The notes under the pieces are model-generated. The model made no database searches. It saw only the letters and a list, made by a program, of their open reading frames with translations, and was not told where the DNA came from. The position numbers were made by a program, and so were the translations under genes. DNA of 64,000 nt from Escherichia phage slur09, in sequence record NC_028840.1. One strand, written 5' to 3'. Shown in pieces: positions 49,680 to 57,220 of the stretch (positions are counted from its first letter, which is position 1; the number at the start of each line of letters is the position of its first letter).

Positions 49680-49756
49680 GGGGGTGTAATCGAATTGGCA
49701 TAGGTACTGGACTTAAAATTCAGGTTTTGTGGGTTCGAATCCCACCACCCCTACCA
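49680..49756 (+). tRNA. tRNA with Leu anticodon TAA on a short-variable-arm (type I) scaffold
   Basis: Acceptor GGGGGTG/CACCCCT, A73, D-loop AATTGGCAT, anticodon arm CTGGA-CTTAAAA-TTCAG, 5-nt variable loop, T-arm GTGGG-TTCGAAT-CCCAC. Confidence 0.6.
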
Positions 49757-51306: not shown

Positions 51307-51383
51307 ATTCCTAGAGTGTTACTGGACAGCATGTCGGTCTCCAAAACCGTACGGTCTAGGTTCGAGTCCTAGTAGGTTTGCCA
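51307..51383 (+). tRNA. tRNA-Trp-like (anticodon CCA) with two U-U mismatches in the acceptor stem
   Basis: Anticodon arm CGGT-CTCCAAA-ACCG, T-arm CTAGG-TTCGAGT-CCTAG, acceptor ATTCCTA/TAGGTTT pairs 5 of 7. Confidence 0.45.
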
Positions 51384-52431: not shown

Positions 52432-52514
52432 GGGTCGTTAGCCAAGCGGTTTGGCGGTGGACTGTTAATCCATGTCGAAAGACAACGTAGGTTCGAATCC
52501 TACACGGCCCGCCA
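52432..52514 (+). tRNA. tRNA with Asn anticodon GTT on a long-variable-arm (type II) scaffold
   Basis: Acceptor GGGTCGT/ACGGCCC, G73, D-arm GCCA/TGGC, anticodon arm GTGGA-CTGTTAA-TCCAT, 13-nt variable arm with GTC-GAAA-GAC hairpin, T-arm GTAGG-TTCGAAT-CCTAC. Confidence 0.6.
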
Positions 52515-54267: not shown

Positions 54268-54730
54268 CAAGGTGCTTCAAGCTCTAGATCTTCCAGAGCT
54301 CTTTACTATTACCGACTCCTTAATACATCGGTATATGGAAAAGTATAATGAAATCTCTGGTAAAAAAGGGAAACTAAAATCCTCAGAATTTAAGTTCTGT
54401 TATAGAATGGCAGCATTAAACCTCTTAAAGTATAAGAGGGAGCATAAAATTCCTATAACAGAAGGATTTGTCTATGTAATAGGTAATCCAGCATGGCCTG
54501 GACTATATAAGATAGGCATGACAGTAGATGTGAACGAAAGACTGTCTAGTTATCAAACATATTCGCCTTATCGTGATTACAAGTTATACCATTTCAGATT
54601 CTCCTCAGACAAGAGAAGAACTGAAAAAGCATTACATAACCTTCTGAAAGACTACAAAATATCAGGAGAATGGTTTGAAGTACCTCTGTTAGACGCCTTC
54701 AAACTATTAGTAGAAAATTTGGATTGCTAA
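54257..54730 (+). CDS. T5orf172-domain protein (GIY-YIG-like, putative homing endonuclease family)
   Basis: 157 aa; GFVYVIGNPAWPGLYKIGMT...RLSSYQTYSP motif, paralog of 50740..51231. Confidence 0.6.
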   Translation: MLINKVLQALDLPELFTITDSLIHRYMEKYNEISGKKGKLKSSEFKFCYRMAALNLLKYKREHKIPITEGFVYVIGNPAWPGLYKIGMTVDVNERLSSYQTYSPYRDYKLYHFRFSSDKRRTEKALHNLLKDYKISGEWFEVPLLDAFKLLVENLDC

Positions 54731-54798
54731 CTCAACTGGATAAGAGTACCGGACCTTTAATCCGTCAGTTCTGGGTTCGAATCCCAGGCAATCCACCA
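54721..54798 (+). tRNA. tRNA-Lys (anticodon TTT)
   Basis: Acceptor GGATTGC/GCAATCC, D-arm ACTC/GAGT, anticodon loop CCTTTAA, T-arm CTGGG-TTCGAAT-CCCAG, encoded CCA. Confidence 0.8.
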
Positions 54799-55167: not shown

Positions 55168-55244
55168 GCGTGATTGATGGAATTGGCATACATACCGTCC
55201 TTAGAAGTCGGGTTTTGAGGGTTCGAATCCCTTGTCACGCACCA
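55168..55244 (+). tRNA. tRNA with Leu anticodon TAG on a short-variable-arm (type I) scaffold
   Basis: Acceptor GCGTGAT/GTCACGC, A73, D-loop AATTGGCAT, anticodon arm CCGTC-CTTAGAA-GTCGG (one U-U), T-arm GAGGG-TTCGAAT-CCCTT; paralogous to the tRNA at 49680. Confidence 0.6.
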
Positions 55245-56716: not shown

Positions 56717-56968
56717 ATGCACGTTTTTGAGTTTCGTAATAAAAGTACCGATAAACGGGTTATTGTTATTGGAGAAACATACCGAGCATACGAACAAACT
56801 GACGGCTCTGTTATCCTGAATGATGAGAAAGGAGGTTTTAGCTTTTATCCAGAAGAACCTTATGAAGAGTTTCGAAAACAATTTAACCTAGACTGGAGAA
56901 AGCATTTAAACACTGTTGCTTCATCTGTAGTATTGCCAACTACCAGTACTGTACTCTCTAATGGCTGA
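56717..56968 (+). CDS. hypothetical protein
   Basis: ORF track, 83 aa. Confidence 0.45.
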   Translation: MHVFEFRNKSTDKRVIVIGETYRAYEQTDGSVILNDEKGGFSFYPEEPYEEFRKQFNLDWRKHLNTVASSVVLPTTSTVLSNG

Positions 56969-57125
56969 TAACCTAAAAGTCAAGATCGATAAACAAAAGA
57001 AACGTGTAGAAGTAGAGATTGGTGAAGAACGTGTAGCCTTCACCTTTGAATTTCTACAACAAATGGCAATGACAGTTATGACTGATAAGTCCCCTGTTAT
57101 TGAAAAAGAAATCCCGTTGAAATAA
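56961..57125 (+). CDS. hypothetical small protein (54 aa)
   Basis: ATG overlapping the previous stop region; below ORF-track cutoff. Confidence 0.35.
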   Translation: MADNLKVKIDKQKKRVEVEIGEERVAFTFEFLQQMAMTVMTDKSPVIEKEIPLK

Positions 57126-57133
57126 CGGGTTCT

Positions 57134-57220
57134 GCTGGGTTGGCAGAATGGTTGAATGCACCTGATTTGTAATCAGGAGGAGTAATCCCGTTGCAGGTTC
57201 GAATCCTGTGCCCAGCACCA
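57134..57220 (+). tRNA. tRNA with Thr anticodon TGT on a long-variable-arm (type II, Leu-like) scaffold
   Basis: Acceptor GCTGGGT/GCCCAGC (G1-C72, C2-G71), A73, D-arm GCA-GAATGGTTGAA-TGC, anticodon arm CCTGA-TTTGTAA-TCAGG, 15-nt variable arm, T-arm GCAGG-TTCGAAT-CCTGT, encoded CCA. Confidence 0.6.

What the first reader, a model, noticed from the sequence alone, without database searches (positions are those of the whole stretch)
57134..57220. Thr-anticodon tRNA on a Leu-like long-variable-arm scaffold
This 84-nt tRNA has a Leu-type D-arm (3-bp stem, 11-nt loop), a 15-nt variable arm and A73, yet its anticodon is UGU and it carries G1-C72 and C2-G71 pairs, which are ThrRS identity elements. 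The scaffold and anticodon do not match any standard bacterial isoacceptor class.
Basis: partly seen in the sequence, partly recalled or inferred. Interest (0 to 1): 0.6.

Follow-up and report, generated by a model that had tools for sequence, protein, structure and literature searches.

The report
Threonine tRNA with an extra arm
This is the known threonine tRNA (anticodon UGU) of T5-like phages; its extra hairpin arm is real and conserved. The same design turns up in about a fifth of sampled viral tRNA-Thr(UGU) genes and on some bacterial chromosomes, where textbooks expect extra arms only on Leu, Ser and Tyr tRNAs.

Summary
Window 57134-57220 (+) is an 84-nt tRNA plus encoded CCA, with anticodon UGU, a 3-bp D stem, an 11-nt D loop and a 15-nt variable region folding into a GNRA-capped 3-bp hairpin.

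The window is a T5-like phage, and this gene is annotated tRNA-Thr in about 100 relatives. A 2025 paper shows that T5 tRNA-Thr(UGU) helps rescue E. coli from the PARIS nuclease AriB, which cleaves host tRNA-Thr(UGU).

"Leu-like" is not supported:
- The D-arm format is common to all E. coli long-arm tRNAs.
- Its sequence and GG register match tRNA-Ser(UGA), not Leu.
- A73, G1-C72 and C2-G71 occur in both E. coli tRNA-Thr and tRNA-Leu.

It belongs to a large class I found no description of. About 21% of sampled viral tRNA-Thr(UGU) genes carry such an arm. All 71 unique members have G1-C72 and C2-G71, 80% have U73, and the arm's stem covaries. The same design sits in cellular gene contexts in Eremiobacterota and Spirosoma.

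Most likely it is a ThrRS-charged ACA/ACU decoder that replaces the nuclease-targeted host tRNA. That the extra arm itself blocks the nucleases is an untested inference.

The parts
57134..57217 (+). tRNA-Thr(UGU) body, positions 1-73 (84 nt)
   Evidence: ARAGORN. Rfam RF00005 58.9 bits. Annotated tRNA-Thr in T5-like records.
57218..57220 (+). genome-encoded 3' CCA
   Evidence: Read directly from the sequence and included in the ARAGORN call.
57134..57140 (+). acceptor stem 5' strand GCUGGGU, pairing with 57210-57216. G1-C72 and C2-G71 are the E. coli ThrRS determinants.
   Evidence: G1-C72 and C2-G71 are invariant in 71/71 related viral long-arm tRNA(UGU) genes and in 25/25 aligned sequences.
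57143..57159 (+). D arm: 3-bp stem (GCA/UGC) and 11-nt loop GAAUGGUUGAA. This is the class II format with the Ser-type GG register; A15 is the partner of U48.
   Evidence: Region 8-26 is 80% identical to E. coli serT. All three D-stem pairs covary. 15/48 covaries between subclasses.
57161..57177 (+). anticodon arm CCUGA-UUUGUAA-UCAGG. It keeps the AriB site U36-A-A-U-C40|A41 (cut equivalent between 57174 and 57175). It also keeps the paired CNG motif (C28UG30 / C40AG42) that P2-OLD uses.
   Evidence: Sequence compared with E. coli thrU, ACUGA-CUUGUAA-UCAGU. Cleavage sites are from PMC12409363 and PMC12445682.
57168..57170 (+). anticodon TGT (UGU, reads ACA; with the U34 modification usual in E. 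coli, also ACU and ACG)
   Evidence: ARAGORN and the Rfam alignment. The decoding range rests on established knowledge of cmo5U34, not on a test here.
57178..57192 (+). 15-nt variable region: A, then hairpin GGA-GUAA-UCC (57179-57188, GNRA tetraloop), then CGUU, with U48 at 57192
   Evidence: In a 25-sequence alignment chosen by length only, all three stem pairs change on both sides and 89% of cells pair. Hairpins are longer than in shuffled controls across 71 relatives.
57193..57209 (+). T arm GCAGG-UUCGAAU-CCUGU
57210..57217 (+). acceptor stem 3' strand GCCCAGC and discriminator A73
   Evidence: The E. coli thrU, thrT and thrW genes also have A73.
57113..57129 (+). hairpin CCCGUU-GAAAU-AACGGG, 4 nt upstream of the tRNA 5' end and overlapping the stop codon of the 54-aa ORF at 56961-57125. 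Possibly a precursor-processing or terminator element. On the minus strand it reads as an intrinsic-terminator-like site.
   Evidence: Its function was not tested.

Best explanation
This is the genuine tRNA-Thr(UGU) of a T5-like phage.

How it most likely works:
1. The host ThrRS charges it with threonine, using G1-C72, C2-G71, G35 and U36 (inferred from identity rules).
2. It decodes ACA, and probably ACU and ACG. Together these make up 85% of the phage's Thr codons.
3. It replaces the host's single tRNA-Thr(UGU) when defence nucleases that cut the anticodon stem destroy that tRNA (PARIS AriB; P2 OLD).

Its body is not the usual short-loop tRNA-Thr body. It is a class II type body with a 3-bp D stem, an 11-nt Ser(UGA)-like D loop and a short GNRA-capped variable-arm hairpin.

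That design defines a large natural lineage of tRNA-Thr(UGU), found in many phages and as a chromosomal gene in some bacteria. The lineage probably arose by remoulding a tRNA-Ser(UGA)-type gene, since anticodon UGA becomes UGU with one base change.

What is shown here: the structure, its conservation and covariation, the Thr-type identity elements, its distribution, and ACA = Thr in the phage's genes. What comes from the literature: function in E. coli under PARIS. What is inferred: direct charging by ThrRS, and the idea that the remodelled body is what lets the tRNA escape the nucleases although it keeps their cleavage-site sequences.
For: Structure and detection.

Identity of the phage and annotation.

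Function:
- Co-expressing T5 tRNA-Lys and tRNA-Thr(UGU), with or without tRNA-Asn, restores growth and phage infection (PMC12409363).
- The T5 gene differs from the window's at one T-stem base.
- P2-OLD also targets host tRNA-Thr(UGU), and phage tRNA-Thr(UGU) genes rescue the cell (PMC12445682).

Thr identity of the class:
- G1-C72 in 71/71 and C2-G71 in 71/71.
- Position 73 is U in 57, A in 13 and C in 1, much like short-arm viral Thr(UGU).
- The acceptor stem is closest to Thr classes.

The extra arm is under selection:
- All three stem pairs show compensatory changes, and 89% of cells pair.
- Mean stem length is 3.07 against 2.57 +/- 0.085 in shuffles, with 41 distinct stems.

Distribution:
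- 20 of 95 viral tRNA-Thr(UGU) genes in a scan that did not select on variable-region length carry a long arm.
- The design also sits in cellular gene contexts in Eremiobacterota, next to the Tyr-Gly-Thr(GGU) tRNA cluster, and in Spirosoma.

Codon evidence:
- ACA is 27% and ACU 49% of the phage's Thr codons.
- ACA codons in NrdA, NrdB, NrdD and ThyA align to Thr in the E. coli homologues in 12/27 cases and to Leu in 2/27, the same as for ACU, ACC and ACG.
Against: - No aminoacylation was measured here. I found no direct charging assay of this tRNA in the papers I read.
- The rescue experiments used over-expression. The authors note that some viral tRNAs might act as competitive inhibitors of AriB rather than as decoders.
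- A73 and the A15/U48 pair are two of the E. coli LeuRS determinants listed in PMC9976931, so some Leu mischarging is possible.
- ThrRS is a class II synthetase, and whether E. coli ThrRS tolerates a protruding variable arm has not been shown directly.
- The bacterial loci show a cellular gene context only. I could not check whether those genomes also carry a short-arm tRNA-Thr(UGU).
Confidence: 0.85

Rival explanations
1. Body remodelling as immune evasion (an add-on to the main explanation, not an exclusive rival). The variable-arm hairpin and the altered D loop would stop anticodon-stem Toprim nucleases (AriB, P2-OLD) from docking. The phage tRNA would then stay intact although it keeps their cleavage-site sequences.
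For: - The window tRNA keeps U36AAUC|A41 and both CNG motifs exactly as in E. coli thrU. In contrast, T5 tRNA-Lys resists AriB through stem and D-loop substitutions.
- The AF3 model in PMC12409363 has the AriB dimer spanning the anticodon stem and D-loop positions 16-17, and the authors infer further contacts elsewhere in the tRNA. The variable arm starts 3 nt after the cut site, and this tRNA has no nucleotide at position 17.
- Only two non-Leu/Ser/Tyr tRNAs in the window have a variable region of 10 nt or more: Thr(UGU) and Asn(GUU). Both are AriB target isoacceptors that keep the site. A rough post-hoc chance estimate is 3/136.
- In viral contigs the long arm is found on Thr(UGU), but not on Thr(CGU) (0/15) and rarely on Thr(GGU) (1/14).
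Against: - Resistance of T5 tRNA-Thr(UGU) to AriB or OLD was not shown directly in the text I could read.
- The 27-43 pair (C-G instead of A-U) or position 32 could be the real determinant.
- The same design is an ordinary chromosomal gene in Eremiobacterota and Spirosoma, so it need not be a counter-defence device.
- Retention of the CNG motif is only mildly higher in long-arm than in short-arm viral tRNAs (45/71 versus 32/72).
Confidence: 0.35
2. A Leu-scaffold tRNA with a Thr anticodon that LeuRS charges, wholly or partly. It would insert Leu at ACA codons, like the nematode nev-tRNAs.
For: - A73, an A15/U48 pair and a long arm are present.
- E. coli LeuRS ignores the anticodon and relies on A73 and core tertiary elements (PMC9976931).
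- Class II tRNAs with non-Leu anticodons that are charged with Leu do exist (PMC3333845).
- One true Leu-type scaffold with a UGU anticodon was seen in a Woeseiaceae MAG (L232).
Against: - The D loop lacks the Leu register and A20a, and matches Ser(UGA).
- The phage's own Leu tRNAs carry the Leu-type D loop.
- 80% of the class has U73.
- ACA codons lie at conserved Thr positions, and ACA is 27% of the phage's Thr codons.
- The tRNA helps rescue growth when host tRNA-Thr(UGU) is destroyed.
Confidence: 0.05
3. A degenerate or non-functional tRNA-like relic, for example a Ser or Leu tRNA gene that drifted, or a tRNA disrupted by an insertion in the variable loop.
For: Phage tRNA clusters do contain odd and pseudo-tRNAs. 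In this window the tRNA-Trp call has acceptor mismatches.
Against: - The Rfam score is 58.9 bits, seventh of 20 tRNAs in the region.
- All stems are perfect, and CCA is encoded.
- The gene is conserved at 94-100% in about 100 genomes.
- All five helices show compensatory covariation in distant relatives.
- There is functional rescue in E. coli.
Confidence: 0.02

Closest known systems
Bacteriophage T5 tRNA-Thr(UGU), annotated in T5-like genomes and used in PMC12409363
   Same: It is the same gene. It is 98.9-100% identical, in the same position between the same small ORFs of the tRNA cluster. It was shown to contribute to bypassing PARIS.
   Different: Nothing material: one T-stem base (G.U here, A-U in T5_ev212). 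The word 'variable' does not occur in the main text of that paper or of the P2-OLD paper, so the long arm is not discussed there.
Canonical bacterial tRNA-Thr(UGU) (E. coli thrU)
   Same: G1-C72, C2-G71, A73, anticodon UGU, A37-A38, and an anticodon stem identical at positions 28-31 and 39-42.
   Different: thrU has a 4-bp D stem, an 8-nt D loop, A9 and a 5-nt variable loop. The phage tRNA has a 3-bp D stem, an 11-nt loop, G9 and a 15-nt variable arm.
Bacterial class II tRNAs, especially tRNA-Ser(UGA) (E. coli serT)
   Same: The D-arm format and sequence (80% identity over positions 8-26), the hairpin in the variable region with a GNRA loop, and an anticodon one base away (UGA versus UGU).
   Different: It has A73 rather than G73. 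It has C2-G71, which is an antideterminant for SerRS, rather than G2-C71. Its arm stem is 3 bp rather than 5-7 bp, and it has A15/U48 rather than G15/C48.
nev-tRNAs of nematodes (class II tRNAs with Gly or Ile anticodons, charged with Leu; PMC3333845)
   Same: A long variable arm combined with an anticodon outside Leu/Ser/Tyr.
   Different: nev-tRNAs keep Leu identity and mistranslate. This class keeps the acceptor and anticodon determinants of the amino acid that its anticodon specifies.
allo-tRNAs (8/4 or 9/3 acceptor/T-stem tRNAs with a long V arm and varied anticodons; PMC5389517)
   Same: Non-canonical long-arm tRNAs found in bacteria and phages, some with missense anticodons.
   Different: allo-tRNAs have 8/4 or 9/3 acceptor/T helices, a tRNA-Sec-like D arm and SerRS identity. 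This tRNA has the standard 7/5 arrangement and Thr determinants.
Nuclease-resistant phage tRNAs (T5 tRNA-Lys against AriB; T5 tRNA-Tyr against PtuAB; mycobacteriophage anticodon-loop variants, PMC10264068)
   Same: A phage copy of exactly the isoacceptor that a defence nuclease destroys, which restores translation.
   Different: The known cases escape through point substitutions in the anticodon stem-loop or D loop. Here the cleavage-site sequence is unchanged and the whole body architecture differs.

Membership tests
tRNA (Rfam RF00005) | Cloverleaf scoring above the gathering threshold (29 bits) | tested here: met
   58.9 bits, E = 8.8e-13, full model 1-71. ARAGORN agrees.
tRNA-Thr (E. coli ThrRS identity set) | G1-C72 and C2-G71 in the acceptor stem | tested here: met
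   GCUGGGU/GCCCAGC. Invariant in 71/71 class members. These pairs also occur in E. coli tRNA-Leu, so on their own they do not discriminate.
tRNA-Thr (E. coli ThrRS identity set) | Anticodon G35 and U36 | tested here: met
   Anticodon UGU at 57168-57170.
tRNA-Thr (E. coli ThrRS identity set) | Actually charged with threonine and decodes ACN as Thr | not testable with these tools
   The support is indirect. T5 tRNA-Thr(UGU) helps rescue PARIS toxicity (PMC12409363). The phage's ACA codons sit at Thr positions.
Class II (long-variable-arm) tRNA architecture | Variable region of more than 10 nt forming a stem-loop | tested here: met
   15 nt with a 3-bp stem and a GUAA loop. The stem covaries.
Class II (long-variable-arm) tRNA architecture | 3-bp D stem with an enlarged (11-nt) D loop, as in bacterial Leu, Ser and Tyr tRNAs | tested here: met
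   Same bracket pattern as all E. coli Leu, Ser and Tyr tRNAs.
tRNA-Leu (E. coli LeuRS identity set, per PMC9976931) | Discriminator A73 | tested here: met
   A at 57217. A73 is also present in E. coli thrU, thrT and thrW.
tRNA-Leu (E. coli LeuRS identity set, per PMC9976931) | A15-U48 Levitt pair | tested here: met
   A15 in the D loop and U at 57192. This is typical of the A73 subclass (10/13).
tRNA-Leu (E. coli LeuRS identity set, per PMC9976931) | Leu-type placement of G18G19 and A20a in the D loop (GAAUUGGUAGA) | tested here: not met
   The D loop is GAAUGGUUGAA, with GG one position earlier and the UUGAA tail seen in E. coli Ser(UGA). The phage's own Leu tRNAs have GAAUUGGCAUA.
tRNA-Ser (E. 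coli SerRS identity set) | G73, G2-C71 and a long (5-7 bp) variable-arm stem | tested here: not met
   It has A73, C2-G71 (listed as an antideterminant against SerRS) and a 3-bp arm stem.
allo-tRNA (PMC5389517) | 8/4 or 9/3 acceptor/T-stem composition | tested here: not met
   Standard 7-bp acceptor and 5-bp T stem.
Nuclease-resistant phage tRNA (anti-defence tRNA) | Matches the isoacceptor targeted by a host nuclease and restores growth or infection when expressed | not testable with these tools
   Reported for the near-identical T5 gene in combination with T5 tRNA-Lys (PMC12409363).
Nuclease-resistant phage tRNA (anti-defence tRNA) | Is itself not cleaved by the nuclease | not tested
   The main text I could read gives no direct cleavage assay of T5 tRNA-Thr. 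The cleavage-site sequence is retained.

The most novel reading that the evidence does not exclude
Class II type tRNA-Thr(UGU) is a natural, widespread and so far undescribed isoacceptor architecture, present in many phages and native to some bacteria. In phages, its remodelled body (variable-arm hairpin plus Ser-type D arm) would be a new way to evade immunity. It would keep the ThrRS determinants and even the nucleases' cleavage-site sequence, while blocking docking of the Toprim nucleases AriB and P2-OLD. The same logic would explain the long-arm tRNA-Asn(GUU) in this phage.
Probability: 0.3. Interest if true: 0.8.

Novelty: new variant of a known kind. Interest (0 to 1): 0.55.

Why it matters
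The gene itself is not new. It is T5's annotated tRNA-Thr(UGU), and it has been studied experimentally. What seems to have gone unremarked is its architecture.

Textbooks and recent reviews limit bacterial long-arm tRNAs to Leu, Ser, Tyr and Sec (PMC7609411). Here a Thr isoacceptor with a covarying extra arm makes up about a fifth of sampled viral tRNA-Thr(UGU) genes. It is also chromosomal, in non-phage gene contexts, in Eremiobacterota and in cultured Spirosoma.

This matters for three reasons:
- **tRNA identity.** It raises the question of how a class II synthetase such as ThrRS accommodates an extra arm, and how mischarging by LeuRS and SerRS is avoided.
- **tRNA evolution.** It points to a remoulding route from Ser(UGA) to Thr(UGU).
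- **Phage-host conflict.** Two defence nucleases cut host tRNA-Thr(UGU) a few nucleotides from where the arm emerges, and the phage copy keeps their target sequence. Whether the arm is the resistance determinant can be tested directly with materials that already exist.

Tried and rejected
- **BLAST against E. coli genomes.** The 87-nt tRNA gave no match even at E <= 10, because the database is very large. I fetched E. coli tRNA genes by coordinates instead.
- **MFE folding of the single sequence.** This gave a non-cloverleaf structure with z = -2.25. I discarded it in favour of the ARAGORN, Infernal and covariation evidence.
- **Alternative anticodon register giving a Leu anticodon.** None exists. 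The loop UUUGUAA is unambiguous.
- **Literature on a class II tRNA-Thr or on the T5 extra arm.** Nine searches found no description. The supplements of the PARIS and P2-OLD papers are not held. The 1980s T5 tRNA gene papers and the 2005 T5 genome paper could not be read, so an earlier mention cannot be excluded.
- **BLAST of a U73-type class member against cultured phages.** It found only five weak hits (Rhodococcus phage Trina, Prevotella phage Lak-A2 and others). BLAST is too insensitive for this class.
- **CNG-motif retention as a test of the shield idea.** The difference is weak (45/71 long-arm versus 32/72 short-arm) and not decisive.
- **Weak Rfam hits.** The sX4 and anti-hemB hits are far below their gathering thresholds. 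I dismissed them as tRNA-like and terminator-like chance matches.
Full report
**1. What is there**

The window is a T5-like phage (Tequintavirus). The 1.7 kb around the finding is 96-98% identical to Escherichia phage IME178, Lindwurm, T5_ev212 and many Salmonella and Escherichia relatives. The finding lies in the phage's tRNA cluster: ARAGORN tRNAs between 45.3 and 58.3 kb, and Rfam.

At 57134-57220 on the + strand, ARAGORN calls tRNA-Thr(tgt), 87 nt including an encoded CCA. Its drawn structure is:
- a 7-bp acceptor stem, GCUGGGU/GCCCAGC;
- U8 and G9;
- a 3-bp D stem with the 11-nt loop GAAUGGUUGAA;
- the anticodon arm CCUGA-UUUGUAA-UCAGG;
- a 15-nt variable region, A + GGA-GUAA-UCC + CGUU;
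- the T arm GCAGG-UUCGAAU-CCUGU;
- the discriminator A73.

Rfam's tRNA model scores 58.9 bits (E = 8.8e-13) and places the extra bases as an insertion in the variable region. No other register gives a Leu anticodon.

**2. It is a known, working gene**

The same 87 nt, at 94-100% identity, occur in about 100 T5-like records, most of them annotated tRNA-Thr. T5_ev212 is one of them, and its copy differs at a single T-stem base.

PMC12409363 reports three things:
- Ribosomes then stall at AAA and ACA codons.
- Co-expressing the T5 versions of these tRNAs restores growth and phage infection. Adding T5 tRNA-Thr(UGU) to T5 tRNA-Lys improves rescue.

[quoted passage not shown] Phage tRNA-Thr(UGU) genes rescue the cell by restoring ACA decoding.

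The word 'variable' does not occur in the main text of either paper, so neither discusses the long arm.

**3. Is the scaffold Leu-like? No**

I extracted the E. coli K-12 Leu, Ser, Tyr, Thr, Asn, Lys and Trp tRNA genes.
- The 3-bp stem and 11-nt loop format of the D arm is common to every E. coli Leu, Ser and Tyr tRNA.
- Within the loop, Leu tRNAs read GAAUUGGUAGA, with GG at loop positions 6-7 and A20a. The phage tRNA reads GAAUGGUUGAA, with GG at positions 5-6 and the tail UUGAA. That matches E. coli tRNA-Ser(UGA), GAGCGGUUGAA.
- Over positions 8-26 the phage tRNA is 80% identical, ungapped, to serT. It is 65-70% identical to the other Ser tRNAs and 60-65%, with a gap, to the Leu tRNAs.
- A73 is present in E. 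coli thrU, thrT and thrW.
- G1-C72 and C2-G71 are present in all E. coli Leu tRNAs as well as the Thr tRNAs.

Two real LeuRS determinants listed in PMC9976931 are present: A73 and the A15-U48 pair. The G18G19 placement and A20a are not.

SerRS elements are absent. The tRNA has A73 and a 3-bp arm, and C2-G71 is a listed antideterminant against SerRS.

The phage's own tRNA-Leu(UAA) and tRNA-Leu(UAG) keep the Leu-type D loop (GAAUUGGCAUA), A15/U48 and A73, yet have only a 5-nt variable loop.

**4. It belongs to a large class**

BLAST with the tRNA also found full-length relatives outside T5-like phages:
- an 86-nt copy in Synechococcus phage BUCT-ZZ01;
- 85-nt copies annotated tRNA-Thr in Aeromonas T4-like phages PX29 and Ah1.

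Of the 96 matches lying inside ARAGORN tRNAs, 82 were tRNA-Thr(UGU) with variable regions of 11-18 nt, and their sequences were very diverse.

A second scan with the gap opened to 10-27 nt ran in the same order and therefore did not select on variable-region length. It gave 75 short-loop and 20 long-arm tRNA-Thr(UGU), about 21% long. This figure is conditional on that particular T-arm sequence.

Among 71 unique long-arm viral members:
- G1-C72 is present in 71/71 and C2-G71 in 71/71;
- position 73 is U in 57, A in 13 and C in 1.

That is nearly the same as in 72 short-loop viral tRNA-Thr(UGU) genes. U73 in 80% of the class rules out Leu identity for the class.

The window's tRNA belongs to the A73 subclass, which carries A15/U48 (10/13). 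The U73 subclass carries G15/C48 (53-54 of 57), so the Levitt pair covaries.

Segment by segment, the acceptor stems are closest to Thr classes and the D arms closest to Ser(UGA).

In the same viral loci, Thr(CGU) has no long arm (0/15) and Thr(GGU) almost none (1/14).

**5. The extra arm is a selected helix**
- Across the 71 sequences, 62 have a hairpin of 3 bp or more. Mean stem length is 3.07, against 2.57 +/- 0.085 in shuffles.
- There are 41 distinct stems with a fixed layout: one unpaired base 5' of the stem and 3-4 unpaired bases 3' of it.
- 24 of the 62 loops are GNRA.
- In an ungapped alignment of 25 sequences chosen by length alone (A1), all three arm pairs change on both sides and 89% of cells pair.
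- For the whole cloverleaf, 97.7% of cells pair, against 32-44% when partners are slid by 1-3 columns.

**6. It is not only viral**

Inside tRNAs it gave 72 Tyr and 19 long-arm Thr(UGU).

About a dozen of the 19 are Candidatus Eremiobacterota (including Cybelea and Elarobacter), on large contigs or whole chromosomes.
- All have the acceptor GCCGACG and U73.
- They usually lie beside, and divergent from, a Tyr(GUA)-Gly(UCC)-Thr(GGU) cluster whose Thr(GGU) has a short loop.
- Their neighbours are cellular genes: a sigma factor, CysRS, a SpoU methylase and sugar-modifying enzymes.

Two cultured Spirosoma species carry one next to an amylase and an amidase-like gene.

So some ThrRS enzymes live with such a tRNA as what appears to be a normal chromosomal gene. 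I could not check whether a short-loop copy also exists in those genomes.

**7. Codon evidence**

The phage's Thr codons are ACU 49%, ACA 27%, ACC 15.5% and ACG 9%. From my own recollection, not checked here, ACC dominates Thr codons in E. coli.

In NrdA, NrdB, NrdD and ThyA, ACA codons align to Thr in the E. coli homologue in 12/27 cases and to Leu in 2/27. This is no different from ACU (21/58 Thr, 5/58 Leu), ACC or ACG. ACA therefore means Thr in this genome, and a Leu-inserting tRNA(UGU) would be harmful.

**8. Mechanism**

Best supported (confidence 0.85): a ThrRS-charged tRNA-Thr(UGU) that supplies ACA/ACU decoding for an AT-rich phage, and that stands in for the host's single tRNA-Thr(UGU) when defence nucleases remove it.

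Inferred (about 0.35): the class II body is what protects it. The argument runs as follows.
- The phage tRNA keeps the AriB site U36AAUC|A41 and both CNG motifs exactly as in thrU.
- T5 tRNA-Lys, in contrast, escapes AriB through substitutions in the stem and D loop.
- In the authors' AF3 model the AriB dimer contacts the anticodon stem and D-loop nucleotides 16-17, and they infer further contacts elsewhere.
- The arm emerges three nucleotides after the cut site, and the D loop here has no nucleotide at position 17.
- The only other tRNA in the window outside Leu/Ser/Tyr with a variable region of 10 nt or more is Asn(GUU), another AriB target that also keeps its site.

Against this: resistance of T5 tRNA-Thr was not measured in what I could read. 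The 27-43 pair does differ from thrU. And the same design exists as an ordinary bacterial gene.

Origin (inference): the Ser(UGA)-like D arm, together with the single-base distance between anticodons UGA and UGU, suggests remoulding of a Ser(UGA)-type gene into a Thr acceptor.

**9. Comparison with known kinds**

The tRNA passes the tests for tRNA, for the ThrRS identity elements and for class II architecture. It fails part of the Leu test, fails the Ser test, and fails the allo-tRNA test (its acceptor/T arrangement is 7/5, not 8/4 or 9/3).

It resembles the nev-tRNAs (PMC3333845) only in combining a long arm with an unexpected anticodon.

A 2020 review of non-canonical tRNAs lists class II as Ser, Leu and Tyr and, in the passages matching my search terms, describes no long-arm tRNA-Thr and does not mention phages. 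Nine literature searches found no description of a long-arm tRNA-Thr. Older T5 papers could not be read.

**10. Verdict**

'Leu-like' is wrong; the body is a class II type closest to Ser(UGA). The gene is known and functional. I rate it a new variant of a known kind, interest 0.55.

Noticed in passing
window 49680-49756 and 55168-55244: Both phage Leu tRNAs (UAA and UAG) are short-loop tRNAs with a 5-nt variable loop. They still keep the Leu-type D loop GAAUUGGCAUA, A15/U48 and A73. Short-loop Leu tRNAs are also common in the viral contigs sampled: caa 5/15, taa 7/23, tag 7/18. So in this phage Leu lacks the extra arm while Thr and Asn have one.
   Followed up: partly
window 52432-52514: tRNA-Asn(GUU) has a 13-nt variable region, GUC-GAAA-GAC + AAC, which is a GNRA-capped 3-bp hairpin. 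It sits on an otherwise short-loop type body with a 4-bp D stem. It keeps the AriB site U36AAUC|C41 of E. coli asnT. In viral loci 12/50 Asn(GUU) tRNAs had long variable regions.
   Followed up: partly
window 57110-57119 and 57184-57193: There is a 10-nt direct repeat, AATCCCGTTG. One copy is in the hairpin just upstream of the tRNA; the other spans the 3' side of the variable arm and the first base of the T stem. The upstream AACGGG (57124-57129) could pair with CCCGUU in the arm within a precursor transcript. It may be chance or a processing signal.
   Followed up: no
L004 2992-3078 (Erwinia phage IT22) and L005 2992-3078 (Erwinia phage Hena1): These are 87-nt tRNAs with anticodon CCA and Trp-type acceptor features (A1-U72, G2, G3, G73). 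By my own count, their D arm, variable hairpin (GGA-GAAA-UCC, or GGG-GAAA-CCC with a compensatory change) and T arm are roughly 85-90% identical to the T5-type tRNA-Thr body; BLAST gave 78-81% over positions 10-76. The same long-arm body seems to serve different amino-acid identities. Hena1 also has an 86-nt Asn(GUU).
   Followed up: partly
L232 5448-5533 (Woeseiaceae MAG JANQGQ010000018.1): This is a genuine Leu-type scaffold (acceptor GCCCGAG, D loop GAAUUGGCAUA, A73, long arm) carrying a UGU anticodon.
   Followed up: no
window 49097-49171: A tRNA(CAU) is found by Rfam (40.3 bits) but not by ARAGORN. It lies directly after tRNA-Ser(GCU).
   Followed up: partly
window 54721-54798: As ARAGORN draws it, tRNA-Lys(UUU) has the anticodon loop CCUUUAA, with C at position 33 where U is nearly universal. 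It also has C41 where E. coli has A41, and a C27/U43 mismatch. This is the AriB-resistant type of tRNA-Lys, but its details differ from the substitutions named for T5 in PMC12409363.
   Followed up: no
viral loci L019-L138: ARAGORN calls long variable regions sporadically in many other isotypes in the sampled viral contigs: Cys 4/19, Ile(UAU) 5/25, Lys(UUU) 4/32, and also Gly, Gln, Glu, His and Met. Some may be mispredictions or introns.
   Followed up: no
window 51307-51383: The tRNA-Trp(CCA) call has two acceptor-stem mismatches and the lowest Rfam score in the cluster (36.3 bits).
   Followed up: no
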